Shown here: positions 13,571-27,239 of the stretch, in pieces
Layout of the letters: each line of letters begins with the position of its first letter
Position numbering within the stretch: the first letter of the stretch is position 1
Source: the human T2T-CHM13v2.0 reference genome, Homo sapiens
DNA: 64,000 nucleotides
Reading direction: 5' to 3' (one strand)
NCBI RefSeq assembly: GCF_009914755.1
Contig: NC_060947.1
Made by a program: the position numbers and the translations under genes
Notes under the pieces: generated by a model
Told to the model about the DNA's origin: nothing
What the model saw: the letters and a program-made list of their open reading frames with translations, nothing else
Database searches by the model: none

Positions 13571-14710
13571 CTGACCTCCTTTCCTGAGTCTGATCACGTC
13601 TCACTGCAGACACTTTACAGAGGAAGTGCTGAGGAAAAACAGGCAGCTGACAGAGGAGGTTGCTATGCAACAGATGAGGAAAGTCATCCAGCCAGGCAGA
13701 ACTGATGTTGGCCCTTGGGGACCAAATGCTGCAGTCCTTCCTAGCATTAGCTTCCTTTCATGTTCAGGCTTCTGGCATGAGTTGATGCCAGAACAAATGT
13801 GAACTGCACAAAGATCTGTCTTGAATTTTGGAAGTGTACCAGTTTAATTTGAGTCACCTCACATCTGTATTTAATTTTCTGCCTTTTTGAGTTTCTCCAG
13901 TTATCCTGGAAGCATAGCAGCGTGTGTGTCCTTGGGTAGGACCCACTTGCTGTGCATTCCACTTTGCACATTGAGAAACCAGGCCCAGAGAATTGAGTGA
14001 CCCGTGCGGGCTCACACAGCTCGAGACAGACAGGCTGGGCACTCCATTCCTGGAATTCTGAAGCCCAGCCCAGTTTCTCTCCATAAAACCACAGCTGCCC
14101 CAGGCCCCAGCCCTGAAAGGAACCAGGGCTTGCCATGGCTCAGACACACAGGTCTGATTGTCCTGGCTGCTCCAGTGGGCACCAGGAAGGCCTCAGGGAC
14201 AGTGTGATTGTATCCCTGATAAGGAAGAGGCCTGATGTTCTGAGCACAGAGTGGACCCCAAGGAGCAATTCCCACGCCTGGATGGACCCACACAGGGCAG
14301 GGGGAGGGTGGGGGCCTCTGCTTGTGTCCTCCTGAATGCAGAGCATGAGCTTGGGCCTCCTAGAACACAAACTTTGCTTGTTTGGTACAAATGGGGTGCC
14401 GTGGTCTGTTGCTCAAATGGAGGAGGGAGGGGTACCCTTAGTCCCCAGGCCAGCATGAGCAGAATGTGGGCTTTGGAGTCAGGAAGACCCAGACCCAAAT
14501 TTTGCATTTTGTTTCCTGGCTCTGTGGCCTTGTCTAGTTCATGCAATGTATCTGTGCCTCAGCTTCCTGATCTGCAAAATAGGGGTGCTGACATCCACTT
14601 CCCAGGGCTGCTGTGACAGGAAGACAAGCCCCAGCACAAATCCTGCTGTGATGTACAAGCTGTGCCCTTCCCTCCTTTCCTCCCCCAACACACACAAAAT
14701 GAGTCCATCA
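13430..14710 (+). repeat. Copy 1 of a ~1.3-kb segment duplicated at 53208-54274 plus 57467-57720
   Basis: Direct alignment by eye; identical ORF translations in both copies (e.g. SNSHAWMDPHRAGGGWGPLLVSS). Confidence 0.92.
14450..14620. mobile_element. MIR
   Basis: ggctttggagtcagg...tctgtgcctcagcttcctgatctgcaaaatagggg. Confidence 0.7.
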
Positions 14711-14939
14711 CCGGAGCTGCAGAAAGAAAGGGAAGAAACTAACGTTCTTTCTGCGTCTGGGAGCTTGTGGGGGCGGGCAGGGGGTGAGGGAGAAATCATG
14801 GAGTCACGTGGCAGCCACAGACTTACTACTACTACTTTGTTAGCTCCAATAGTGTATCCTCTCAGGCCATTCCGTTTCCTCAGCAGAGGTCTAACACTTG
14901 TTGCAATTAGAGACCCCAAACAGAGACCTAAGCATGCTG

Positions 14940-15320
14940 GACAAGGGGGTGGAGATGCAAGCCGGCCTGACAGGAGGGGCCTTGAATAGGGGAGGGACGG
15001 AATAGAGACGCATTGCGGAAAAGGTAGGGGGCCGGTGTGTGGGGCAAGGGGTGGGACCAAGAGGCACAGCGCATCTGTGGGGGAGGGGGCGTAGAGGAAG
15101 GGGAGGTGCTGTTGTATAGTGTCGACCTGGTTGGTGGTGGGGTGGTGTGTTGGCAAAGGGGGCGGGACCGCCTTCCAGCGCACATGCGCATCATGGTCTC
15201 CAGGACGAAGCTTTTGTTGGGAAAGCAGGCGGGACTGACTTTGGCTCTTCAGTGTTTGCGCATGCGCGTAACGTCCTGAGGCGGTGGGTGGTATATTAGG
15301 CGAAGAGGCGGGGTCGCCCA
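14940..15320 (+). promoter_or_regulatory. MAGED1 CpG-rich proximal promoter
   Basis: GC box ggggcggga ~15159-15167; NRF1 palindrome tgcgcatgcgcg 15257-15268 and gcgcacatgcgca 15178-15190; TATA-like tatatta 15292-15298; G-run clusters. Confidence 0.8.
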
Positions 15321-15452
15321 AGCTGCCGCGCTGGCATTTTCTCCTGGACAAGGAGAGAGTGCGGCTGCTGAGAGCCGAGCCCAGCAATCCCGATCCTCTG
15401 AGTCGTGAAGAAGGGAGGCAGCGAGGGGGTTGGGGTTGGGGCCTGAGGCAAG
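15320..15452 (+). other. MAGED1: MAGED1 non-coding exon 1 (start approximate)
   Basis: Downstream of the promoter; strong donor AG|GTGAGA at 15452/15453. Confidence 0.75.
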
Positions 15453-16001
15453 GTGAGAATTAGCCCCCAGACTGGGCATCTGCCCCCTGGTGCGGGCCCC
15501 CATTTTTTTTTATCCCGATCCCTTCACCCTGGATTCTGAATCCCCTTCCACCCCCCAAACCCCAATTCAATGCCCCTCCCGATCCTTCCTGATTCAAAAC
15601 CCCTGTCCGATCCCTCCCATCGTTCGAAATCCTCAGATTCCTTGACCTCGATCTGTACTGTTAGATGATTCCTCCTGACTCAAAACCTCCATGCAACTTC
15701 CCAAATGCGAATCCCAACCCAACCGCACCCCCGCTCCGAATTCAGAACTCATCTGCTTCCCGATCCCCATTTGAAGCTTCGCCCTGTCAGTAGCTTCTCG
15801 GGGTTCAGAACCTCCATCTGGACGCCCATTCACTTTTACCGCTCCGATCCGTTCCTCCTCACATTCACCTTATCCGCCCGCACAGTCAGACCACAGTCAC
15901 CCCCCTCCCAATTAGGTCCTTCGTATTTGCCCTCTGTAGTATAACGCCCTGCCCCTCTCCCACAGCCCCCAGGCTCCGCTCTTGCCAGAGGGACAGGAGC
16001 C

Positions 16002-16046
16002 ATGGCTCAGAAAATGGACTGTGGTGCGGGCCTCCTCGGCTTCCAG
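16002..16046 (+). CDS. MAGED1: MAGED1 exon 2 coding part (MAQKMDCGAGLLGFQ); exon starts at 15966
   Basis: Kozak gccATGG; donor CAG|GTGAGA; recognised MAGED1 N-terminus. Confidence 0.95.
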
Positions 16047-16322
16047 GTGAGATCTCCACTCCCCACCCCACCATTTCCCCAGCCGACAGTCACCCCTCCC
16101 CGCGGGCCTCTTTGGTCTCCCAAACGCCGGGATCCGGTTTGACCCTATTTAGTGACTAGACTCCGTGGGCTTTTCGAATTCCCATCGTTTATCGAAGGGG
16201 GGGAGGGGCGTCTCTTTTCAGCCATCAGTCCCTGCTCAGAGAGAGGGGAGACCCTGTTAGTAGTCAGGGCAATCTGCCCAGAGAATGCGGGGTGGGTAAG
16301 GAACCATTTTTTTTTTTTCCAG

Positions 16323-16490
16323 AATCCTGACGCTTGTAGAGCAGTCTGTCACCCCCTCCCCCAGCCTCCTGCCTCCACCCTCCCTCTTTCTGCATTCCCC
16401 ACTCTGTGCGACCCCCCTTATTCTCAACTCCGCGATCCGCCTGCCGTCCTGAGCTGCTACTGCACGCCTCTTGGAGCGTCCCCGGCTCCT
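16323..16490 (+). CDS. MAGED1: MAGED1 alternative cassette exon, 56 aa (NPDACRAV...GASPAP; long 834-aa isoform)
   Basis: T12-ccAG acceptor, weak GTTCGT donor, 168 nt, phase 0-0, in frame. Confidence 0.75.
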
Positions 16491-16748
16491 GTTCGTGCCC
16501 ACTTTCCGCATACCGCCCCACCCCTCATTTTGCCCTTGCCCTACTTCACCCCTGCCACATGTTTAGTACCCGCCTGGTCCCCCATCGCCCCTCGCGGGCC
16601 CCCTAGATCTCTGCCTCAGCCCCCCTGTTTTTGCACCCACCGCCCGCCTGCAGCTCCGCTGCTGCGCTGCCACCCGGGCTCCCTATTCCCACCCCACCTC
16701 CTGCCTCAGAGGCCCAGAGATTTAATTTTTTCCCCCCTGTGTTTGCAG

Positions 16749-17456
16749 GCTGAGGCCTCCGTAGAAGACAGCGCCTTGCTTATGCAGACCTTGATGGAGG
16801 CCATCCAGATCTCAGAGGCTCCACCTACTAACCAGGCCACCGCAGCTGCTAGTCCCCAGAGTTCACAGCCCCCAACTGCCAATGAGATGGCTGACATTCA
16901 GGTTTCAGCAGCTGCCGCTAGGCCTAAGTCAGCCTTTAAAGTCCAGAATGCCACCACAAAAGGCCCAAATGGTGTCTATGATTTCTCTCAGGCTCATAAT
17001 GCCAAGGATGTGCCCAACACGCAGCCCAAGGCAGCCTTTAAGTCCCAAAATGCTACCCCAAAGGGTCCAAATGCTGCCTATGATTTTTCCCAGGCAGCAA
17101 CCACTGGTGAGTTAGCTGCTAACAAGTCTGAGATGGCCTTCAAGGCCCAGAATGCCACTACTAAAGTGGGCCCAAATGCCACCTACAATTTCTCTCAGTC
17201 TCTCAATGCCAATGACCTGGCCAACAGCAGGCCTAAGACCCCTTTCAAGGCTTGGAATGATACCACTAAGGCCCCAACAGCTGATACCCAGACCCAGAAT
17301 GTAAATCAGGCCAAAATGGCCACTTCCCAGGCTGACATAGAGACCGACCCAGGTATCTCTGAACCTGACGGTGCAACTGCACAGACATCAGCAGATGGTT
17401 CCCAGGCTCAGAATCTGGAGTCCCGGACAATAATTCGGGGCAAGAGGACCCGCAAG
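16749..17456 (+). CDS. MAGED1: MAGED1 exon 3 (AEASVEDS...KRTRK)
   Basis: tttgcAG acceptor, AAG|GTGAGA donor, 708 nt. Confidence 0.95.
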
Positions 17457-17689
17457 GTGAGATCTCTGCTAACTTCATTTTGCTTTGGGGCTGTCTCCTT
17501 TCTTCTCTGAGGGTGTTCATTTGTTCTAAACAAAACAATGTATGTAACTGTATTCAGCTAGGCTATAGGGCATTTGAAGAGAATGTTTATTCCTGTCCTC
17601 CGGATGTTCACAAACTGATGGGGAGATAATACATGGACACAAATAATATATACAACCTGTATGTAATTCAGTTTACATTTTGTTATGTT

Positions 17690-17870
17690 AGTAACCACCA
17701 TGTGTTAAGCCTTGAGCTAGGCACATTCACACAGGTTGTCTCATTAAACCTTAAAGGCACCTCCTACCAGGTAGGGATCATAGTGCCAATTTTACAAAGA
17801 AGGAAATTAAGTGCCAGAGAGGTGAAGTGACTTGAGTGATTTGTTCAGGGTGGTACAGGCAGAACCAGTG
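17690..17870. mobile_element. MIR in intron 3
   Basis: attttacaaagaaggaaattaagtgccagagaggtgaagtgacttg. Confidence 0.7.
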
Positions 17871-18104
17871 GTGGACATAGGAAGAGGAGAAGCCTCAGGC
17901 CCCATCTTTGGGTTGCTCCTGGCCTGGCTCGGAGATGAAACTCCTGCCTGGAAGACAGTGAAAGACAAACCCAGGACTCAGGGTGACCAATGGCTAGTGG
18001 GTCAGGCTGTCACTACAGGTGAGGGTTTAGAGGGCATTCCTGGAATAGATAAGGTGAGGACACAGAACCCACTGGTGATTCTGAACTTCTCTCTGATGAT
18101 GCAG

Positions 18105-18773
18105 ATTAATAACTTGAATGTTGAAGAGAACAGCAGTGGGGATCAGAGGCGGGCCCCACTGGCTGCAGGGACCTGGAGGTCTGCACCAGTTCCAGTGACC
18201 ACTCAGAACCCACCTGGCGCACCCCCCAATGTGCTCTGGCAGACGCCATTGGCTTGGCAGAACCCCTCAGGCTGGCAAAACCAGACAGCCAGGCAGACCC
18301 CACCAGCACGTCAGAGCCCTCCAGCTAGGCAGACCCCACCAGCCTGGCAGAACCCAGTCGCTTGGCAGAACCCAGTGATTTGGCCAAACCCAGTAATCTG
18401 GCAGAACCCAGTGATCTGGCCAAACCCCATTGTCTGGCCCGGCCCTGTTGTCTGGCCGAATCCACTGGCCTGGCAGAATCCACCTGGATGGCAGACTCCA
18501 CCTGGATGGCAGACCCCACCGGGCTGGCAGGGTCCTCCAGACTGGCAAGGTCCTCCTGACTGGCCGCTACCACCCGACTGGCCACTGCCACCTGATTGGC
18601 CACTTCCCACTGACTGGCCACTACCACCTGACTGGATCCCCGCTGATTGGCCAATTCCACCTGACTGGCAGAACCTGCGCCCCTCGCCTAACCTGCGCCC
18701 TTCTCCCAACTCGCGTGCCTCACAGAACCCAGGTGCTGCACAGCCCCGAGATGTGGCCCTTCTTCAGGAAAGA
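18105..18773 (+). CDS. MAGED1: MAGED1 exon 4 (INNLNVEE...LLQER) with WQxPxx hexapeptide repeats
   Basis: gcAG acceptor, AGA|GTAAGA donor, 669 nt; hallmark NRAGE repeat domain. Confidence 0.97.
18237..18716 (+). repeat. 18-bp coding tandem repeat (WQNPxx/WPNPxx/WQTPPG/WPLPPD)
   Basis: Visible 18-nt periodicity. Confidence 0.95.
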
Positions 18774-18903
18774 GTAAGAGCTGTAACTCCCCAGTCACTT
18801 TTCCCCTCTCTTGCTCTTTTCTTTGTCATCCTCTCATCTGTAATTCAACCAAGTTTTTTTGTAAATATTTTATAAGTTTAATGATTTCCTTTTTCCCTCC
18901 CAG

Positions 18904-18967
18904 GCAAATAAGTTGGTCAAGTACTTGATGCTTAAGGACTACACAAAGGTGCCCATCAAGCGCTCAG
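18904..18967 (+). CDS. MAGED1: MAGED1 exon 5 (ANKLVKYLMLKDYTKVPIKRS), start of the MAGE homology domain
   Basis: cAG/GTATGC sites, 64 nt. Confidence 0.95.
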
Positions 18968-18992
18968 GTATGCATCCAGTGTCCCCTCCCCA

Positions 18993-19093
18993 AGCTCTGC
19001 CCTTCCCTTCACTCCATGCTCTGTCAGCATTCTTCTGCTTGTAGCTCTGCCCTTCCCTTCACTCCATGCTCTGTCGGCATTCTTCTGCTTGTA
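18993..19093 (+). repeat. 50-bp tandem duplication in intron 5
   Basis: agctctgcccttcccttcactccatgctctgtc(a/g)gcattcttctgcttgt x2, one mismatch. Confidence 0.95.
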
Positions 19094-19242
19094 TGACCCT
19101 TCCCCTTCTATCCCCTCCTTTCCATGGTTGGCTCTTTCCACCCTTGAGGACCTTGACTGTGCTACCCCCAGCAGGGCTGGCAAAGGGACTGCTGCTCTGT
19201 GGCCCCCGCTCGGCTCAGATGGCTCCCTCCTCTCTCCTACAG

Positions 19243-19322
19243 AAATGCTGAGAGATATCATCCGTGAATACACTGATGTTTATCCAGAAATCATTGAACG
19301 TGCATGCTTTGTCCTAGAGAAG
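19243..19322 (+). CDS. MAGED1: MAGED1 exon 6 (EMLRDIIREYTDVYPEIIERACFVLEK)
   Basis: AG/GTGAGA sites, 80 nt. Confidence 0.95.
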
Positions 19323-19490
19323 GTGAGAAGGCAGCCCTGGGGTACAGGAATAATGGGGAAAGTCTTGATTTCAAAGATTCATGGGGTTCCTACTGGGAGT
19401 TTAGGGCAAGTCTCAGGGAGATGAGTGTCTGCCTATGGGTAGCTTATGCTAGATGTTGTAATTTCATAGTCTGTTTTCTTGCCCCTGTAG

Positions 19491-19582
19491 AAATTTGGGA
19501 TTCAACTGAAAGAAATTGACAAAGAAGAACACCTGTATATTCTCATCAGTACCCCCGAGTCCCTGGCTGGCATACTGGGAAC
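19491..19582 (+). CDS. MAGED1: MAGED1 exon 7 ([31 protein letters not shown])
   Basis: tAG/GTAAGA sites, 92 nt. Confidence 0.95.
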
Positions 19583-19809
19583 GTAAGATGGGAAAGAAGG
19601 TGGAACATGGCCTTTCTCAGTGGTGCTTTTTTTCTAGGAGTTTCACGTAGATCAGGGTCCAGGGTTCAGGGTCACATAGCAGGTCATGGGCAGAGCTGGG
19701 GTATAATTCTCCCCTAGCTGAGGAATATTGGGGAGGCTAGATGGGCAAGCTGGTTGGGGTCTCTCATGCAAATGGCTACTGAAAATATATTCTTTCTATA
19801 TTCCCTTAG

Positions 19810-19889
19810 GACCAAAGACACACCCAAGCTCGGTCTCCTCTTGGTGATTCTGGGTGTCATCTTCATGAATGGCAACCGTGCCAGTGAGG
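19810..19889 (+). CDS. MAGED1: MAGED1 exon 8 ([26 protein letters not shown])
   Basis: tAG/GTGAGT sites, 80 nt. Confidence 0.95.
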
Positions 19890-19980
19890 GTGAGTGGCTG
19901 GACCTGCAGCTGGGGGTTGGCCACAGCCTGATTTCCATGCTTATTTTCCGTCCCTTGTCTCCCCTTGCCTCCCATTGCAG

Positions 19981-20023
19981 CTGTCCTCTGGGAGGCACTA
20001 CGCAAGATGGGACTGCGTCCTGG
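19981..20023 (+). CDS. MAGED1: MAGED1 exon 9 ([15 protein letters not shown])
   Basis: cAG/GTATGA sites, 43 nt. Confidence 0.95.
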
Positions 20024-20276
20024 GTATGATTGGGCTCTCTCATCTCTTGCCTGTTTGTGCCATCCTTTGGCAACAGTGGATGGTCCCAGGATTGCATTAA
20101 CCTGGGGGTCTGGAGGGTTTGGTTTGGGGATGTTCAGAGCCCAAAGATGTGACCTGGGTGGATGGGGAAACAGTTCTGAACTCTCTGCCTCTTTTCTCAT
20201 CTCTGACCTCTGTTCTGGAAAGCTCTTTGGGCATGGTAATAGCCTCTGATTGTGGGTTTCCTTTTTTTACCTTCAG

Positions 20277-20339
20277 GGTGAGACATCCCCTCCTTGGAGA
20301 TCTAAGGAAACTTCTCACCTATGAGTTTGTAAAGCAGAA
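20277..20339 (+). CDS. MAGED1: MAGED1 exon 10 (VRHPLLGDLRKLLTYEFVKQK)
   Basis: cAG/GTAAGT sites, 63 nt. Confidence 0.95.
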
Positions 20340-20416
20340 GTAAGTGATGCCTAAGGGGCTTTTCCTGCTTCTTATGATTCTGCCTGTGTGCTGGTCAGCT
20401 TTAGAAAGCCCTTCCT

Positions 20417-20725
<309 letters not shown>

Positions 20726-20827
20726 TCAAGCTCGTTTCTTACACTATACTTGTGCATATGTGTTTCTGTGCATACAGAAACACTTATGTCCTCAGGAGTA
20801 TTTATTGCATATACTCCTCATGGTTAA

Positions 20828-21133
<306 letters not shown>

Positions 21134-21137
21134 GAAT

Positions 21138-21437
21138 TCTTTTGTTTGTTTTTTTCGAGACTGAGTCTCACTCTGTTGCCCATGCTGGAGTGCAGTGGTG
21201 CAATCTTGGCTCGCTTGAACTTCCACCTCCCAGGTTCAAGCAATTCTTGTGCCTCAGCCTCCCGAGTAACTGGAACTTCAGGTGCGTGCCACCGTGCCCG
21301 GCTGTTTTTGTATTTTTAGTAGAGATGGGGCTTCACCACGTTGGCCAGGCTGGTCTCAAACTCCTGACCTGAAGCAATCCACCCACCTCTGCCTCCCAAA
21401 GTGCTGGGATTACAGGTGTGAGCCACCACACCCGGCC
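21138..21437 (-). mobile_element. Alu, antisense, intron 10 (tandem to the previous one)
   Basis: Alu consensus. Confidence 0.95.
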
Positions 21438-21473
21438 AGAATTTTTCTAATTTTTCTACTTTTCTAAGCAGTT

Positions 21474-21669
21474 GTCTTGCAAGTGAAGCCCATCCACCAT
21501 CCCCACAGTAGACATTCCCAAGGCTGGGCCAGGCTGACACTTTTGCACTGCATTGTACTCATTTCAATGGACCTCTGTGGCTCACTGACAAGATTACAAG
21601 AATCTGGAGCTAGAGCTGAGGCAGAAGGAGTGAAAGGAAATGTTGTCCTTTCTGTGACCCTATACAAGC
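21474..21669 (+). ncRNA. Candidate H/ACA snoRNA-like element (possible diverged SNORA11/U107 paralog)
   Basis: 5' stem gtcttgcaagtgaagcc pairs with ggctcactgacaagat; H box acaaga 21596-21601; 3' hairpin gaaagga/tcctttc; ACA at 21664-21666. Confidence 0.35.
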
Positions 21670-21877
21670 CTCGCCTGCATCTCTAGTGAGTGCTTAGCGT
21701 TCTAGTGCAGGAATTTAAGGCTTGATGATTAAGGGGTAAATACCCTGATGGTGTTCAGGAATGAGCCCAAGGGGGAGTTGCTATCTGAAATCTGTTAAAA
21801 AATGTAAGATTATTTTTCATTAGTGGACTACCATTCTGCCTGGGTAGGTAGACACAAAGACTGTTTTGCTCTTTCAG

Positions 21878-21992
21878 ATACCTGGACTACAGACGAGTGC
21901 CCAACAGCAACCCCCCGGAGTATGAGTTCCTCTGGGGCCTCCGTTCCTACCATGAGACTAGCAAGATGAAAGTGCTGAGATTCATTGCAGAG
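21878..21992 (+). CDS. MAGED1: MAGED1 exon 11 ([38 protein letters not shown])
   Basis: cAG/GTAATG sites, 115 nt; MAGE EFLWG motif. Confidence 0.96.
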
Positions 21993-22224
21993 GTAATGGA
22001 GGAACTGTTCCAGCATTGATAGGTCAAGGGATGAAGTATAGCTGGCTGGGAAAGGCCCAGGGTAGGAATGAGATCCTAGGTGTGGCAGGTGGTAGGTGCC
22101 GCATTGCTGGTGGTATTTGTTGTTGCTGTTAGGTAAACTTAACATGTATTAGGTGCTAACATATGTTAATATATTAGCTAATACAATTATGAGTTTGTTT
22201 TGGGTTTTTTTTTAGGTTTTTAAA

Positions 22225-23215
<991 letters not shown>

Positions 23216-23248
23216 GGATTTTGTTTTGTTTTCTATTCCTCATCTCAG

Positions 23249-23626
23249 GTTCAGAAAAGAGACCCTCGTGACTGGACTGCACAGTTCATGGAGGCTGCAG
23301 ATGAGGCCTTGGATGCTCTGGATGCTGCTGCAGCTGAGGCCGAAGCCAGGGCTGAAGCAAGAACCCGCATGGGAATTGGAGATGAGGCTGTGTCTGGGCC
23401 CTGGAGCTGGGATGACATTGAGTTTGAGCTGCTGACCTGGGATGAGGAAGGAGATTTTGGAGATCCCTGGTCCAGAATTCCATTTACCTTCTGGGCCAGA
23501 TACCACCAGAATGCCCGCTCCAGATTCCCTCAGACCTTTGCCGGTCCCATTATTGGTCCTGGTGGTACAGCCAGTGCCAACTTCGCTGCCAACTTTGGTG
23601 CCATTGGTTTCTTCTGGGTTGAGTGA
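23249..23626 (+). CDS. MAGED1: MAGED1 exon 12 coding part (VQKRDP...GFFWVE*); exon ends at 23634
   Basis: cAG acceptor; TGA at 23624-23626; summed CDS = 2337 nt = 778 aa + stop. Confidence 0.96.
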   Translation, partial: VQKRDPRDWTAQFMEAADEALDALDAAAAEAEARAEARTRMGIGDEAVSGPWSWDDIEFELLTWDEEGDFGDPWSRIPFTFWARYHQNARSRFPQTFAGPIIGPGGTASANFAANFGAIGFFWVE

Positions 23627-23841
23627 GATGTTGGGTAGGTACATCACTTTGGATTGGGCAGTTAGGGTCTCTGGGGGATATAGGGTCCATGGGGTTGTAT
23701 TTATGTGCATGAGCTAGAAGTATTAGGAAACTCATTGTAGGGAGATGAGGAAAGTATGGGGCAGCACTCTTTGGTATGTATATTCCTTATTATTTGATAT
23801 ATATCATTGATTTTTTTACTTCTTCTTTCTTATGTTCACAG

Positions 23842-24050
23842 ATATTGCTATCAATCGCAGTAGTCTTTCCCCTGTGTGAGGCTGAAGCCTCAGATTCCTT
23901 CTAAACACAGCTATCTAGAGAGCCACATCCTGTTGACTGAAAGTGGCATGCAAGATAAATTTATTTGCTGTTCCTTGTCTACTGCTTTTTTTCCCCTTGT
24001 GTGCTGTCAAGTTTTGGTATCAGAAATAAACATTGAAATTGCAAAGTGAA
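23842..24050 (+). other. MAGED1: MAGED1 terminal non-coding exon 13 (3' UTR)
   Basis: Pyrimidine tract + cacAG acceptor; AATAAA at 24025-24030 with a downstream T-rich element. Confidence 0.85.
24025..24030 (+). terminator. MAGED1 polyadenylation signal
   Basis: AATAAA followed by a T-rich tract at 24068-24077. Confidence 0.85.
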
Positions 24051-25065
24051 TTAGATGTGCTCTCTGCTTCTTTTTTTCCCTATATTTGGGGAGCGAGCAA
24101 CATGTTTATGTGGGAGAGACAGGACCTCAGCTGTAGTTTGAAGGGTAGATCAGCTTTCAGCAGGTGGAAATGTGGGAAGATCTAGCTACTGGATTGGGAT
24201 ACAAAGGCAGGATCAATGAACACGAGACCCAAGAACTAGTATAGTTTATTCAATAAATATCACTTAAGTGACTCTCATGTGATAGATATGCTGCTAGGTG
24301 TCTTGGAGTGACATTGCGAGAAGTCGCATAGTGAGAGAGGGTATTGGTGCTCAGACAGTTGCACTTAAGAACACAGAGGAGGTGGAGCTCCAGGTGATGA
24401 TAAGGTCCAGAGAGTAGGTAGTTGAAGGGGACAGAAGGTGACTATTCTGGAGATAAGGGGTCCATGGCCTGTGATTCTAGGGTGTTGGTTATACAACCCA
24501 TGTGGAAAGTGAAAGAACTCCAGGAGGGCAGCAGGAGTAGGAGTAGAGAACACTATGAGTTAGATGCCAGAGTCTCCTCTGTGAGAAGGAAGATATACCC
24601 CTAGCCACATTGCTCATAAAGGGATGGGCTCACAGGCACTCCTCCCCATCTCTGGAAATGCTGCCCAGGATCCTGTCCCTCTAGGAGGCCCTCACAATCT
24701 TCCCACTTGCACAGGACCGGGGCTGCCTCCTCGAGACAGGATCTTATGGGCAGTGAAGGAGGCCTCACAATGGCCTCTTCTCTCCTGCAGGGAGAAAGAG
24801 AAGACTTTGTTACCTCAAGAACAAGAATTACAAAGTAAGACAAAGCTCCATGCACAGGCTTTGACTGTGACTGTGAGCAGGAACTTGGCTTGAGCTGCTG
24901 AGTTCTATGCTGGAAGCAAGGCTCTCCCACTGAGGACAAAATTAGGCCTAGGCCATGACTTCCTTGGGTGCTTGGTGGTATCTGGACATGTGGACAAGGG
25001 CAGAGACGGGAGCTCCTGGGGCACAAAAAAGAGCAAAGGCAATTTGGCCTCCTGGGAAGGGTTTG

Positions 25066-25122
25066 GTAGTGGGTAGGGATGGTGTCCACAGCTTCCTTAG
25101 GTTCCTGAGTGATGTCCACATT
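25066..25122 (-). pseudogene. PFKFB1-like terminal coding exon relic (NVDITQEPKEAVDTIPTHY, stop codon lost)
   Basis: Minus-strand acceptor ctctctcctcAG; matches the recalled PFKFB1 C-terminus NVDITREPEEALDTVPAHY*. Confidence 0.85.
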
Positions 25123-25481
25123 CTGAGGAGAGAGCCCAGGATTAATAGGAAGGAGACAGCAGTGCAGGGCCCCAACGCCTCCCCTGCCTGTTGTCCTCAT
25201 TGCCAGGCTCCCCTCTTTCAGCCAGGCCTGGATCCTGACCCTCAGGTAGGCCTGGAGGAAATCTCAGCCTGAGGCCTTTTTGGCAGGGATTGCACCAGCC
25301 CTGCATCTCCATGATGCCTCAGGTCTGGGCTGTAGTTCCTGCATTTCTGGGTGCTGTTTTTTCCACCTTTTGGTGCAAAACACCCAGGCTCGGTGGGGTT
25401 GGGGCAGTCTTTCTGTGGAGAAGGTGCTTCCACCATGTGCTGTGTCCACAGCCAGCTTGGGTAATGGAGTCCCCCACCTAC

Positions 25482-25546
25482 CTCAGGCTTCTCCCGGTGT
25501 GTGTTCACGGCCTCCACATTCAGGTGGACGGACTCCACCTTGCAGC
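25482..25546 (-). pseudogene. PFKFB1-like penultimate exon relic (xCKVESVHLNVEAVNTHREKPE)
   Basis: 65 nt, acceptor ttcttttccaAG, donor GAG|GTAGGT; matches the recalled PFKFB1 GCKVESIYLNVEAVNTHREKPE. Confidence 0.88.
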
Positions 25547-26064
25547 CTTGGAAAAGAACAATCCATCTTTCCATAAGTCCCCAAGGTAGGCACAGGTCTT
25601 CCATGGGGTATCACCTCCCTCCCATCACCACCCACACTCCCAGCTTCATACTGTGTACAGATCATGACTTGCCTGGGGAATTTAGACAGCTGTGTGATGT
25701 GTGGGGAAGACACCAGGCCTAAGAGGCAGCCAACAGGGCATCCTGTCACCTCTGCCCCTAACAGTCTTAGTTCTCTGAGCTTTAGTTGCTCATTTGTAAA
25801 TGGGGATGGAGATGAGAGATGAACTCTACGGCTGCCCACAGCTCTTGAGGTCCGCAGGACATCAGTCGCATCTGTGTAATATTGATGTAGCTCTGTGGAT
25901 CCTCCAAGCCGTGTTAGGTGCTGAAGAGGTGCAAGAGTCCTGGGGCTACTGCCTTGGGTGATCAGTACCAGGCAAAGTTTATCAGGAGGACAATGTGGTT
26001 GTGGCAACACCAGGAGTGTGGAAGATCACGTGGGAGTTTTAGGGAACCTGAAGAAGGAAGAGGG

Positions 26065-26106
26065 TGCATCTTTGGGGTTTGGGGCTGCATCTTTGGGGTT
26101 TGGGGC
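26065..26106 (+). repeat. 21-bp tandem duplication tgcatctttggggtttggggc x2
   Basis: Exact duplicate. Confidence 0.9.
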
Positions 26107-26640
26107 TGACAGAGGAGGCCTAATGCCTGTGGAAGCTCTGTGGACTGCACCTTACTCCAGGCTTCAGTAGGCCATTCTGCTCTGTCCACACCCCAGAATA
26201 GGTTTGATTCTGTCCCTTCCCTGCTCATGAAATTCTTGTGTAATTTGCACAATTGGCAAAATCAGAACAAAGTCTTTAGATTTAGATTAGACAACAATAT
26301 TATATTAATGTTAGTGGCCTTATTTTGATTATATTATTTTTTTCTGCAAGAGAGTGTCTTTGTAATTTAGTCTCCAAATATTTATGGAAGTGTGTGTGCG
26401 TGTGCACATACATAGAGAGAAGGAGAGACAAAAGACAGGGAGGATAAAACAAATGTGATAAAATGTTAACATTGAAGAATCTAGGTTAAGTGTAGACAGG
26501 AATTTTTTTTAACTAGTTTTGCAACATTTTTTGTAAGTCTTCAATTATATCAGAATAAAAATTTAAATTTAAAAAGTACTTTTATTTTTACAAATATTCA
26601 CTGAAATTCATCTGACTAGCATGTACTACACACACTTCTT

Positions 26641-27066
26641 TTTTTATCACCAAATGCTCACTTCCTTTTAATTATTATTATTATTTTTAATTAATTTCTA
26701 TAGGAATTTTTTAAAATTATACTTTAAATTCTAGGGTACATGTGCACAATGTGCAGGTTTCTTACATAGGTATACATGTGCCATGTTGGTTTGCTGCACC
26801 CATCAACTCGTCATTTACATTAGGTATTTCTCCTTATGCTCTCACTCCCTCAGTCCCCCACCCCCTGACAGGCCCTGGTGTGTGATGTTCCCCGCCCTGT
26901 GTCCATGTGTTCTCGTTGTTTAACTCCTACCTATGAGTGAGAACATGCAGTGTTTGGTTTTCTATCCGTGTGATAGTTTGCTGAGAATGATGGTTTCCAG
27001 CTTCATCCATGTCCCTGCAAAGGACATGAACTCATCCTTTTTTATGGCTGCATAGTATTCCATGGT
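26641..27066 (-). mobile_element. 5'-truncated L1PA 3' end with a probable short 3' transduction
   Basis: L1PA 3' UTR; 18-bp TSD gtactacacacacttctt at 26623-26640 and 27065-27082. Confidence 0.9.
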
Positions 27067-27239
27067 ACTACACACACTTCTTGACATTGCACCCTTTGGG
27101 AAAAGGTCACTGTGCAACATGATGCAGTTATTCTTCATACAAACAAAAGTGCATTCACTCCTTTCCAAAGCAAGAAAACCAAAAGTCTCATAAGCTGTTG
27201 CATGCAGATCCAAATCCAGGGATAATTGTTCATCCTAAT

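What the first reader, a model, noticed from the sequence alone, without database searches (positions are those of the whole stretch)
25066..25546. Hidden PFKFB1 3' end (two exons, intact splice sites) convergent with MAGED1
Seen on the minus strand: a 65-nt exon (25546-25482; xCKVESVHLNVEAVNTHREKPE) with a good acceptor and donor. A 359-nt GT-AG intron follows, then a phase-0 exon from 25122 (NVDITQEPKEAVDTIPTHY). Established (recalled): PFKFB1 ends GCKVESIYLNVEAVNTHREKPE/NVDITREPEEALDTVPAHY* and lies tail-to-tail with TRO (MAGED3) at Xp11.21. Inference: MAGED1 arose by DNA-level duplication of the TRO-PFKFB1 junction. Because both MAGED1 and TRO exist in rodents, the event is old. Yet the first exon differs at only ~2 residues and keeps its CpGs and splice sites, suggesting selection (spliced antisense RNA or micro-protein, or an exonic regulatory element) or gene conversion. 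I found no further upstream PFKFB exon.
Basis: partly seen in the sequence, partly recalled or inferred. Interest (0 to 1): 0.82.

Follow-up and report, generated by a model that had tools for sequence, protein, structure and literature searches.

The report
Decaying PFKFB1 gene tail beside MAGED1
Just downstream of MAGED1 lies an unannotated leftover of the last two exons of the sugar-metabolism gene PFKFB1, copied along when the MAGE-D genes duplicated and later partly overwritten from the real gene, and it looks like a neutral relic rather than a working gene.

Summary
On the minus strand, 25546-25482 and 25122-25066 are copies of the last two PFKFB1 coding exons, with AG/GT sites and a 359-nt intron.

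The real PFKFB1 tail lies 3.05 Mb away at chrX:54226502-54227699, next to the MAGED paralogue that carries decapeptide repeats (TRO). MAGED1 and its 3' flank are colinear with TRO and its flank at 67-85% identity. MAGED2 and both MAGED4 copies carry decayed relics of the last exon at the same place. An old DNA-level duplication of the MAGE-PFKFB1 junction is therefore supported.

The high similarity is not specific to the exon. A 1.12-kb block (25109-26231) is 93.3% identical to PFKFB1. Exon A is 93.8% identical and the introns 93.6% and 92.2% (Fisher p=1.0). The adjacent flank is 65% identical (p=3e-47).

In the relic:
- the distal last exon is old and decayed;
- the stop codon reads CAA;
- the AATAAA reads AACAAA;
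- 14 of 18 CpG sites differ;
- there are no upstream PFKFB exons.

Best reading: a neutral partial pseudogene, with a later gene-conversion patch copied from PFKFB1. Selection on the exon is not supported. Transcription and other species could not be tested.

The parts
25482..25546 (-). Relic of the penultimate PFKFB1 coding exon (exon A, 65 nt), with AG acceptor and GT donor intact
   Evidence: One search gives the sequence; 20/22 aa identical to 1k6m_A residues 392-413, E=1.3e-8; 61/65 nt identical to chrX:54227013-54226949, with 2 synonymous and 2 non-synonymous differences.
25123..25481 (-). Relic of the last PFKFB1 intron (359 nt, GT...AG)
   Evidence: 330/358 aligned bases identical (92.2%), with 1 one-base gap.
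25066..25122 (-). Relic of the coding part of the last PFKFB1 exon (exon B, 19 codons). Only its first 14 nt belong to the young block
   Evidence: 14/19 aa identical to the C-terminus of 1k6m_A; 47/57 nt identical, with 5 synonymous and 5 non-synonymous codon differences; of the 10 differences in 25108-25066, 7 are derived in the relic, 2 are derived in PFKFB1 and 1 is ambiguous.
25063..25065 (-). CAA at the position of the PFKFB1 stop codon TGA, so the stop is lost
   Evidence: The MAGED4 relic still has TGA at this column.
25547..26231 (-). Relic of the 3' 685 nt of the PFKFB1 intron that precedes exon A. Homology ends abruptly at 26231
   Evidence: 619/661 identical (93.6%), with 6 gap events. 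Upstream of 26231 identity is 39%, meaning no homology.
25109..26231 (-). Young high-identity block, the inferred conversion tract copied between this relic and PFKFB1
   Evidence: 1024/1098 identical (93.3%, JC 0.071); against the adjacent old flank, Fisher p=3e-47.
24296..25108 (-). Old, decayed part of the duplicated unit: distal exon B, PFKFB1 3'-UTR-like sequence and the MAGE-PFKFB1 intergenic sequence
   Evidence: 55-72% identity to chrX:54225822-54226585. It is also colinear with the flanks of MAGED2 and MAGED4. AACAAA stands where PFKFB1 has AATAAA 223 nt after its stop.
26067..26108 (-). 21-bp tandem duplication specific to the relic, lying inside the young block
   Evidence: a 21-column gap in PFKFB1 lies opposite the first of the two copies.
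15320..24050 (+). MAGED1 (hub annotation), the convergent neighbour. It is colinear with TRO, MAGED2 and MAGED4
   Evidence: ordered blocks at 59-85% identity.

Best explanation
This is a non-functional, unprocessed fragment of PFKFB1, that is, a partial pseudogene.

**Step 1, inferred from structure seen here.** The ancestral X-linked MAGE gene lay tail-to-tail with PFKFB1. When that MAGE gene was duplicated at the DNA level to give MAGED1, MAGED2 and MAGED4, each copy took the 3' end of PFKFB1 along. These copied tails then decayed.

**Step 2, inferred.** Much later, a stretch of about 1.1 kb was copied non-reciprocally between the real PFKFB1 and the MAGED1-side relic. It covers the last 685 nt of the preceding intron, exon A, the last intron and the first 14 nt of exon B. 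The mechanism would be interlocus gene conversion, or one-ended repair synthesis templated by the paralogue 3 Mb away on the same strand. This reset the divergence to zero.

**Step 3.** Since then the block has drifted neutrally to 93.3% identity, and exons and introns have diverged equally. The intact splice sites and open frame are what is expected of a young copy. They are not signs of function.
For: **Identity.** PDB matches to the PFKFB C-terminus, and a 1.2-kb DNA match to the X-linked PFKFB gene. The kinase and phosphatase exons of that gene lie at chrX:54230727-54256508.

**Old duplication.**
- Eleven colinear blocks link MAGED1 plus flank with TRO plus flank at 67-85%.
- MAGED2 and both MAGED4 copies have a colinear 3' flank ending in a decayed exon-B relic. 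These show loss of the acceptor, a frameshift, and a 5-bp deletion.

**Young block.**
- 1024/1098 bases are identical (JC 0.071), against 65.0% over 571 columns (JC 0.47) in the adjoining flank; p=3e-47.
- The 3' edge lies inside exon B with no gap. The first 14 nt are identical, then 10 of 43 differ, which differs from the block at p=7e-4.
- Most of those differences are derived on the relic side, 7 against 2.

**Neutrality.**
- Exon A versus introns gives p=1.0.
- Transitions to transversions are 49:25, and there are 7 indel events including a 21-bp duplication.
- Only 4 of 18 CpG sites are shared.
- Both amino-acid changes in exon A alter residues of PFKFB1. Position 1 is Ile in the three PFKFB isozymes shown.
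- The stop codon and the AATAAA are lost.
- There is no Pfam domain, no upstream exon, and no RefSeq gene or functional element (hub table).

**Precedent in the same family.**
- A different 1.33-kb piece of the same PFKFB1 intron is 88.0% identical (1146/1302) beside both MAGED4 copies and occurs nowhere else in the genome.
- The TRO and MAGED2 gene bodies are at JC 0.154 while their flanks are at 0.534.
Against: - No other species could be examined. Timing, direction and the very occurrence of conversion rest on within-genome contrasts alone.
- The 5' edge of the block (26231) abuts sequence with no detectable homology to PFKFB1 (39% identity). Classical two-sided conversion is therefore not shown on that side. 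A later rearrangement or one-ended repair has to be assumed.
- Having two relics that each keep a high-identity piece of the same PFKFB1 intron could instead mean that this intron holds constrained elements.
- No expression data were available, so transcription or splicing of the relic is not excluded.
- The ages of 24-59 Myr for this block and 44-109 Myr for the MAGED4 block depend on recalled substitution rates of 0.6-1.5e-9 per site per year.
Confidence: 0.78

Rival explanations
1. The 1.1-kb block is as old as the MAGED1/TRO duplication. It has been kept similar in both loci by purifying selection, acting as a regulatory element, as exons of a spliced antisense RNA, or as a micro-protein frame.
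For: - Splice sites and the frame of exon A are intact.
- 2 of the 4 shared CpGs of the block lie in exon A.
- A second relic, beside MAGED4, also keeps a high-identity piece of the same intron.
Against: - Exon and intron identity are equal (p=1.0).
- Exon B is worse than the introns.
- The stop codon and the poly(A) hexamer are lost.
- 14 of 18 CpG sites differ, and there are 7 indel events including a 21-bp duplication.
- The CpG excess in exon A is not significant (p=0.11). PFKFB1's own coding constraint explains it in part.
- The chance that the six core splice bases survive on the relic lineage at this divergence is about 0.8.
- MAGED2 and MAGED4 let the homologous exon decay.
- RefSeq has no functional element or gene here (hub table).
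- No Pfam match.
Confidence: 0.08
2. There was no old relic at this spot. A 1.1-kb piece of PFKFB1 was inserted here by a separate recent duplication or repair event, and it landed by chance next to MAGED1.
For: - The 5' edge at 26231 has no flanking homology.
- The block is much younger than its surroundings.
Against: - The block runs without a gap, and in frame, into an older, colinear and much more diverged continuation. That continuation comprises distal exon B, the 3' UTR-like sequence and the intergenic sequence.
- The continuation is shared with the MAGED2 and MAGED4 flanks.
- A chance landing at the exactly homologous position and orientation is very unlikely. A homology-guided event at that position is what the main explanation proposes.
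Confidence: 0.06
3. MAGED1 as a whole is simply a young duplicate of TRO-PFKFB1, and the block shows the true age of the duplication.
For: MAGED1 plus flank is colinear with TRO plus flank.
Against: - Introns and the 3' flank of MAGED1 versus TRO are at JC 0.33-0.53, against 0.071 in the block.
- Gene-body quartets group MAGED1 with MAGED4 and TRO with MAGED2, with site counts of 47 vs 6 and 8, 18 vs 3 and 3, and 25 vs 11 and 10.
- PMC3484994 (passages read) analyses MAGED genes of both primates and rodents.
Confidence: 0.02

Closest known systems
PFKFB1 (X-linked 6-phosphofructo-2-kinase/fructose-2,6-bisphosphatase), last two coding exons at chrX:54227013-54226949 and from 54226590 in this assembly
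   Same: - Same exon boundaries, intron position and splice sites.
- 61/65 and 47/57 nt identical in the two exons.
- 93% identical in the introns.
- Same strand.
   Different: - Only the 3' 1.2 kb is present.
- There are no kinase or phosphatase exons.
- The stop codon is changed to CAA, and the AATAAA 223 nt after the stop reads AACAAA.
- Seven amino-acid differences over the 41 residues.
PFKFB1 last-exon relics beside MAGED2 (chrX:54108974-54109054) and beside the two MAGED4 copies (chrX:51464698-51464857 and 51332720-51332864)
   Same: Same position and orientation relative to the MAGE-D gene, and the same duplicated unit.
   Different: - They are old and decayed, at 60-72% identity, with the acceptor lost and with a frameshift or a deletion.
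- They have no exon A (only chance 9-13-nt matches).
- The MAGED4 relics instead carry an 88%-identical 1.33-kb piece from further up the same PFKFB1 intron.
Interlocus (ectopic) gene conversion between dispersed X-linked paralogues, as described for MAGE-A palindrome arms in PMC3112145 (passages read)
   Same: A sharply bounded block of low divergence inside older paralogous sequence.
   Different: - The partners here are 3 Mb apart in direct orientation, not palindrome arms.
- One partner is a dead gene fragment.
- The block is old (7% diverged) rather than kept near-identical.
- Homology on the 5' side is not detectable.

Membership tests
Unprocessed partial pseudogene (duplicated gene fragment) of PFKFB1 | Significant sequence similarity to the parent gene's exons | tested here: met
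   E=1.3e-8 and 3.4e-4 for the peptides, and E=9e-237 for the DNA.
Unprocessed partial pseudogene (duplicated gene fragment) of PFKFB1 | Introns retained at the parental positions, showing a DNA-level copy and not a retrocopy | tested here: met
   the 359-nt intron and 685 nt of the preceding intron align at 92-94%.
Unprocessed partial pseudogene (duplicated gene fragment) of PFKFB1 | Incomplete or disabled coding capacity | tested here: met
   - No PF01591 or PF00300 match in the window.
- Homology ends at 26231.
- The stop codon and the poly(A) hexamer are lost.
Unprocessed partial pseudogene (duplicated gene fragment) of PFKFB1 | No productive expression | not testable with these tools
   - No RNA-seq, CAGE or Ribo-seq was on hand.
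- RefSeq lists no gene here (hub table).
- No paper was found under antisense-style names for MAGED1 or under PFKFB1P.
Interlocus gene-conversion tract | A block with significantly lower divergence than the surrounding paralogous sequence, with sharp edges | tested here: met
   93.3% in the block against 65% in the flank, p=3e-47. The 3' edge lies inside exon B and the 5' edge at 26231.
Interlocus gene-conversion tract | Older paralogous homology on both sides of the block | tested here: inconclusive
   It is present on the 3' side. It is absent or undetectable on the 5' side (39% identity), where an old interspersed repeat (26390-26582) and an L1-like 3' end (26707-27067) lie nearby.
Interlocus gene-conversion tract | Tree discordance between the block and its flanks | tested here: inconclusive
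   Gene-body quartets pair MAGED1 with MAGED4, while the block pairs the MAGED1 relic with the TRO-side PFKFB1. The MAGED2 and MAGED4 relics lack most of the block, and the flank quartet is unresolved at 21/18/17.
Interlocus gene-conversion tract | Species that branched off before the event carry the unconverted, diverged relic | not testable with these tools
   No other mammalian genome is held.
Functional PFKFB gene | 6PF2K kinase domain and His_Phos_1 phosphatase domain encoded at the locus | tested here: not met
   The matches on chrX that lie in the PFKFB gene are at 54230727-54256508; one further PF00300 match lies at 76.40 Mb. None is in 51150001-51214000.
Selectively maintained exon or conserved element | The exon is better conserved than the neighbouring intron, with a deficit of non-synonymous change | tested here: not met
   
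- exon A 93.8% against introns 93.6% and 92.2%, p=1.0;
- exon A has 2 synonymous and 2 non-synonymous differences;
- exon B has 5 synonymous and 5 non-synonymous differences, plus the lost stop.

The most novel reading that the evidence does not exclude
The PFKFB1 3' intron-exon sequence may be repeatedly re-copied into, or selectively kept beside, MAGE-D genes because it does something there. Two different high-identity blocks exist, 93% beside MAGED1 and 88% beside both MAGED4 copies. Possible roles are exons of a convergent antisense transcript, or a terminator- or insulator-like element at the 3' end of MAGE-D genes. On that reading the intact splice sites of the MAGED1-side copy would be used.
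Probability: 0.06. Interest if true: 0.55.

Novelty: new member of a known kind. Interest (0 to 1): 0.25.

Why it matters
- **A marker of how the MAGE-D genes arose.** The PFKFB1 tail relics beside MAGED1, MAGED2 and both MAGED4 copies show that these genes arose by genomic duplication of the ancestral MAGE-PFKFB1 junction. They also show that the TRO-PFKFB1 locus is the parental arrangement. This fits the published synteny statements (PMC3484994 and PMC3112145, passages read). I found no paper that mentions the relics.
- **Later exchange within the family.** This dispersed family has exchanged kilobase-sized patches long after the duplications.
- **A practical note for annotation.** This is an unannotated 1.2-kb look-alike of the PFKFB1 3' end. 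Gene predictors or short-read aligners could mistake it for coding sequence.

It does not point to a new mechanism or a new gene.

Tried and rejected
- **Upstream PFKFB exons in the window.** None found. PF01591 and PF00300 searches of the whole genome gave no match inside the window. tblastx and blastn of window 25000-64000 against 100 kb of TRO-PFKFB1 gave only repeats and scattered short hits, with none colinear beyond 26231.
- **Homology resuming behind a transposon at 26231.** Part of 26232-26706 (about 26390-26582) is an old interspersed repeat with dozens of copies at about 75% identity (40 matches listed). No PFKFB1 intron sequence reappears upstream.
- **Whether the 325 bp between the two blocks in PFKFB1 (54227700-54228024) is a repeat or is present in a relic.** It is unique in the genome.
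- **Exon A in the MAGED2 and MAGED4 loci.** Only chance matches of 9-13 nt.
- **Pfam on the two stop-free frames through the exons.** No family matched either the 122-aa or the 220-aa frame.
- **Exon-specific conservation and CpG retention.** Not supported (p=1.0 and p=0.11).
- **Resolving the quartet tree of the 3' flanks.** The flanks are saturated and the tree is unresolved, at 21/18/17 sites.
- **Literature.** No paper was found for PFKFB1P, for MAGED1 antisense-type names, or for MAGED1 + MAGED4 + TRO + gene conversion. The library lacks most subscription journals, and I read no supplements.

Full report
**What is there.**

- A 65-nt exon lies at 25546-25482, preceded by a polypyrimidine run and AG, and followed by GTAGGT.
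- A 359-nt GT...AG intron follows (25481-25123).
- A second exon starts at 25122, and its frame runs to ...THY at 25066.

The first exon translates, after its two leading bases, to CKVESVHLNVEAVNTHREKPE. The second translates to NVDITQEPKEAVDTIPTHY.

Against all PDB chain sequences:
- Exon A hits only PFKFB isozymes, 12 of 177,635 distinct sequences at E<=10. The best is 1k6m_A residues 392-413 at E=1.3e-8, with 20 of 22 residues identical.
- Exon B hits one sequence only. It is the last 19 residues (414-432 of 432) of the same chain, at E=3.4e-4, with 14 of 19 identical.

That 1k6m is the human liver isozyme PFKFB1 is my recollection. The tool gives only the enzyme name.

**The parent gene and the neighbourhood.**

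The window's own assembly could be searched. The relic (chrX:51175034-51176231) matches chrX:54226502-54227699 on the same strand, 3.05 Mb away. The other hits are:
- the homologous exon of the chromosome-10 PFKFB paralogue;
- two 144-nt matches at 70% identity, at chrX:51.33 and 51.46 Mb.

Pfam 6PF2K and His_Phos_1 exon matches place the body of the X-linked PFKFB gene at chrX:54230727-54256508 on the minus strand. Neither family matches inside the window.

Immediately tail-to-tail with that gene lies a MAGE-D paralogue (chrX:54217063-54224580, plus strand). It contains 47 copies of a 30-bp repeat. By recall this is the decapeptide repeat region of trophinin (TRO, also called MAGE-D3).

**Old duplication of the junction.**

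blastn of the window against 40 kb around TRO gives 11 ordered, same-strand blocks. They run from MAGED1 exon/intron sequence (17606-24074, 68-85%) through the intergenic sequence (24406-24695, 67%) to the PFKFB1 tail (25034-26231).

The same colinearity holds for the two MAGED4 copies. These are an inverted pair, 99.9% identical over 3 kb, and colinearity runs from the promoter region to window 25241. It also holds for the paralogue at chrX:54.10 Mb, which is MAGED2 by recall of the gene order, up to window 25118.

A four-way alignment shows a recognisable but broken copy of the last PFKFB1 exon in each.
- MAGED4 side: the acceptor CAG has become CAA, there is a one-base deletion, and the TGA is still present.
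- MAGED2 side: there is a 5-bp deletion.

It agrees with two papers, of which I read passages only.
- PMC3484994 uses PFKFB1 synteny to identify the ancestral X-linked MAGE gene and says it "expanded locally" into TRO and MAGED.
- PMC3112145 places the ancestral position at MAGE-D2/D3 and does not contain the string PFKFB.

Neither paper mentions PFKFB1 relics. No paper in the library came up for PFKFB1P or for the other term sets.

**Why the exon looks so good: a young block, not selection.**

A global alignment of relic and parent gives these gap-free identities:

| Segment | Identity |
|---|---|
| Upstream intron | 619/661 (93.6%) |
| Exon A | 61/65 (93.8%) |
| Last intron | 330/358 (92.2%) |
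| Exon B, coding | 47/57 (82.5%) |
| 32 nt after the stop position | 72% |
| Further 3' | 55-67% |
| 5' of 26231 | 39% (no homology) |

- Exon A does not differ from the introns (Fisher p=1.0).
- The block 25109-26231 is 1024/1098 identical (JC 0.071). The adjacent old flank is 65.0% identical over 571 four-way columns (JC 0.47). The contrast gives p=3e-47.
- The 3' edge lies inside exon B. The first 14 nt are identical and 10 of the next 43 differ, which differs from the block at p=7e-4.
- Using the MAGED4 and MAGED2 relics as outgroups, 7 of those 10 changes are on the relic lineage, 2 are on PFKFB1 and 1 is ambiguous. Over 25108-25032 the counts are 12, 7 and 2 of 21. The distal exon has therefore been decaying for a long time on the MAGED1 side while PFKFB1 was constrained.
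- The junction is gap-free and in register. This is what a homology-guided, non-reciprocal copy (gene conversion) leaves.

**Signs of neutral drift inside the block.**
- Transitions to transversions are 49:25.
- There are 7 indel events, among them a relic-specific 21-bp tandem duplication (26108-26067) and a 15-bp gap.
- Only 4 of 18 CpG sites are shared, and 9 of the 14 unshared differ as CG versus TG or CA.
- Two of the four shared CpGs lie in exon A. That excess is not significant (p=0.11). On the PFKFB1 side those sites are held by coding constraint.
- Exon A has 2 synonymous and 2 non-synonymous differences. The Val in the relic replaces an Ile that is also present in the three PFKFB isozymes shown.
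- The stop codon TGA reads CAA in the relic.
- The only AATAAA or ATTAAA within about 730 nt after the PFKFB1 stop lies 223 nt downstream, and it reads AACAAA in the relic. That this hexamer is the poly(A) signal actually used by PFKFB1 is an inference.
- At this divergence the six core splice bases would survive on the relic lineage about 80% of the time. Intact splice sites therefore carry no weight.

**Age (inference).**

With recalled primate substitution rates of 0.6-1.5e-9 per site per year, JC 0.071 corresponds to about 24-59 Myr. That is within primate history and far younger than the MAGE-D duplications.

Gene-body quartets group MAGED1 with MAGED4 and TRO with MAGED2. The informative-site counts are 47 vs 6 and 8, 18 vs 3 and 3, and 25 vs 11 and 10. 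MAGED1-TRO distances are JC 0.33-0.53. MAGED1 as a whole is therefore not a young copy of TRO.

**A second block, and a caveat.**

Beside both MAGED4 copies lies a 1.33-kb piece of the same PFKFB1 intron (chrX:54228025-54229355), just upstream of the piece found beside MAGED1.
- It is 88.0% identical (1146/1302, JC 0.131), with sharp edges.
- It occurs nowhere else in the genome.
- The 325 bp between the two pieces in PFKFB1 is unique to PFKFB1.

In addition, the TRO and MAGED2 gene bodies are much closer (JC 0.154) than their flanks (0.534). I read these as further exchanges within the family, which makes conversion here more plausible.

The same facts could be read as constraint on parts of that intron. 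Without other species I cannot exclude this.

The 5' edge of the MAGED1-side block (26231) abuts sequence with no detectable PFKFB1 homology. An old interspersed repeat lies at about 26390-26582 and an L1-like 3' end at 26707-27067. Two-sided conversion is therefore not demonstrated. One-ended repair synthesis, or a later rearrangement, must be assumed.

**Function.**

No PFKFB catalytic exon is present. The stop-free frames through the exons match no Pfam family. RefSeq lists no gene or functional element between 24051 and 43351 (hub table). No paper uses an antisense-type name for MAGED1. I had no expression, ribosome-profiling or population data, so transcription is untested.

**Verdict.**
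- The identity and the duplication origin are right.
- The good state of the exon is best explained by a later conversion patch that has since drifted neutrally.

This is an ordinary, though unannotated, partial pseudogene. It has some value as a marker of how the MAGE-D genes arose.

Noticed in passing
L017 419-1744 (chrX:51465419-51466744), and the mirror copy at chrX:51330835-51332160, partly in L018/L019: Beside both MAGED4 copies lies a 1.33-kb block that is 88.0% identical (1146/1302) to PFKFB1 intron sequence chrX:54228025-54229355. It is unique to these three places in the genome. It sits about 480 bp beyond the decayed last-exon relic and has no exon A between. It may be a second, older exchange with PFKFB1.
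   Followed up: partly
L006 2627-4937 (chrX:54217627-54219937) versus L020 4958-7227 (chrX:54101958-54104227): The TRO and MAGED2 gene bodies, introns included, are 80% identical over 2.3 kb. One block is at JC 0.154, while their 3' flanks are at JC 0.53. This suggests homogenisation between these two neighbours, or a younger duplication with replaced flanks.
   Followed up: partly
window 24601-25263 (-): Because the PFKFB1 stop is lost, the frame of exon B stays free of stop codons through to 24601. Together with intron sequence upstream it forms a 220-codon stop-to-stop stretch. It has no Pfam match.
   Followed up: partly
window 25242-25610 (-): A 122-codon stop-free frame runs unspliced through exon A into the intron. 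It contains an ATG at about 25603-25601, at the codon where PFKFB1 has CAG. It has no Pfam match. It is probably a chance feature.
   Followed up: no
window 26707-27067: A 360-bp stretch is 89-94% identical to dozens of places on many chromosomes. It looks like the end of a fairly young LINE-type repeat, about 480 bp beyond the 5' edge of the relic. No repeat library was available to name it.
   Followed up: no
window 14138-14662: The region just upstream of MAGED1 exon 1 overlaps a RefSeq enhancer at 14615-14734. It is 78.7% identical over about 550 bp to the corresponding region upstream of MAGED4. That is better than most of the gene body, so it may be a conserved shared promoter or regulatory block.
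   Followed up: no
window 26067-26108 (-): A perfect 21-bp tandem duplication is present in the relic but single-copy in PFKFB1.
   Followed up: yes
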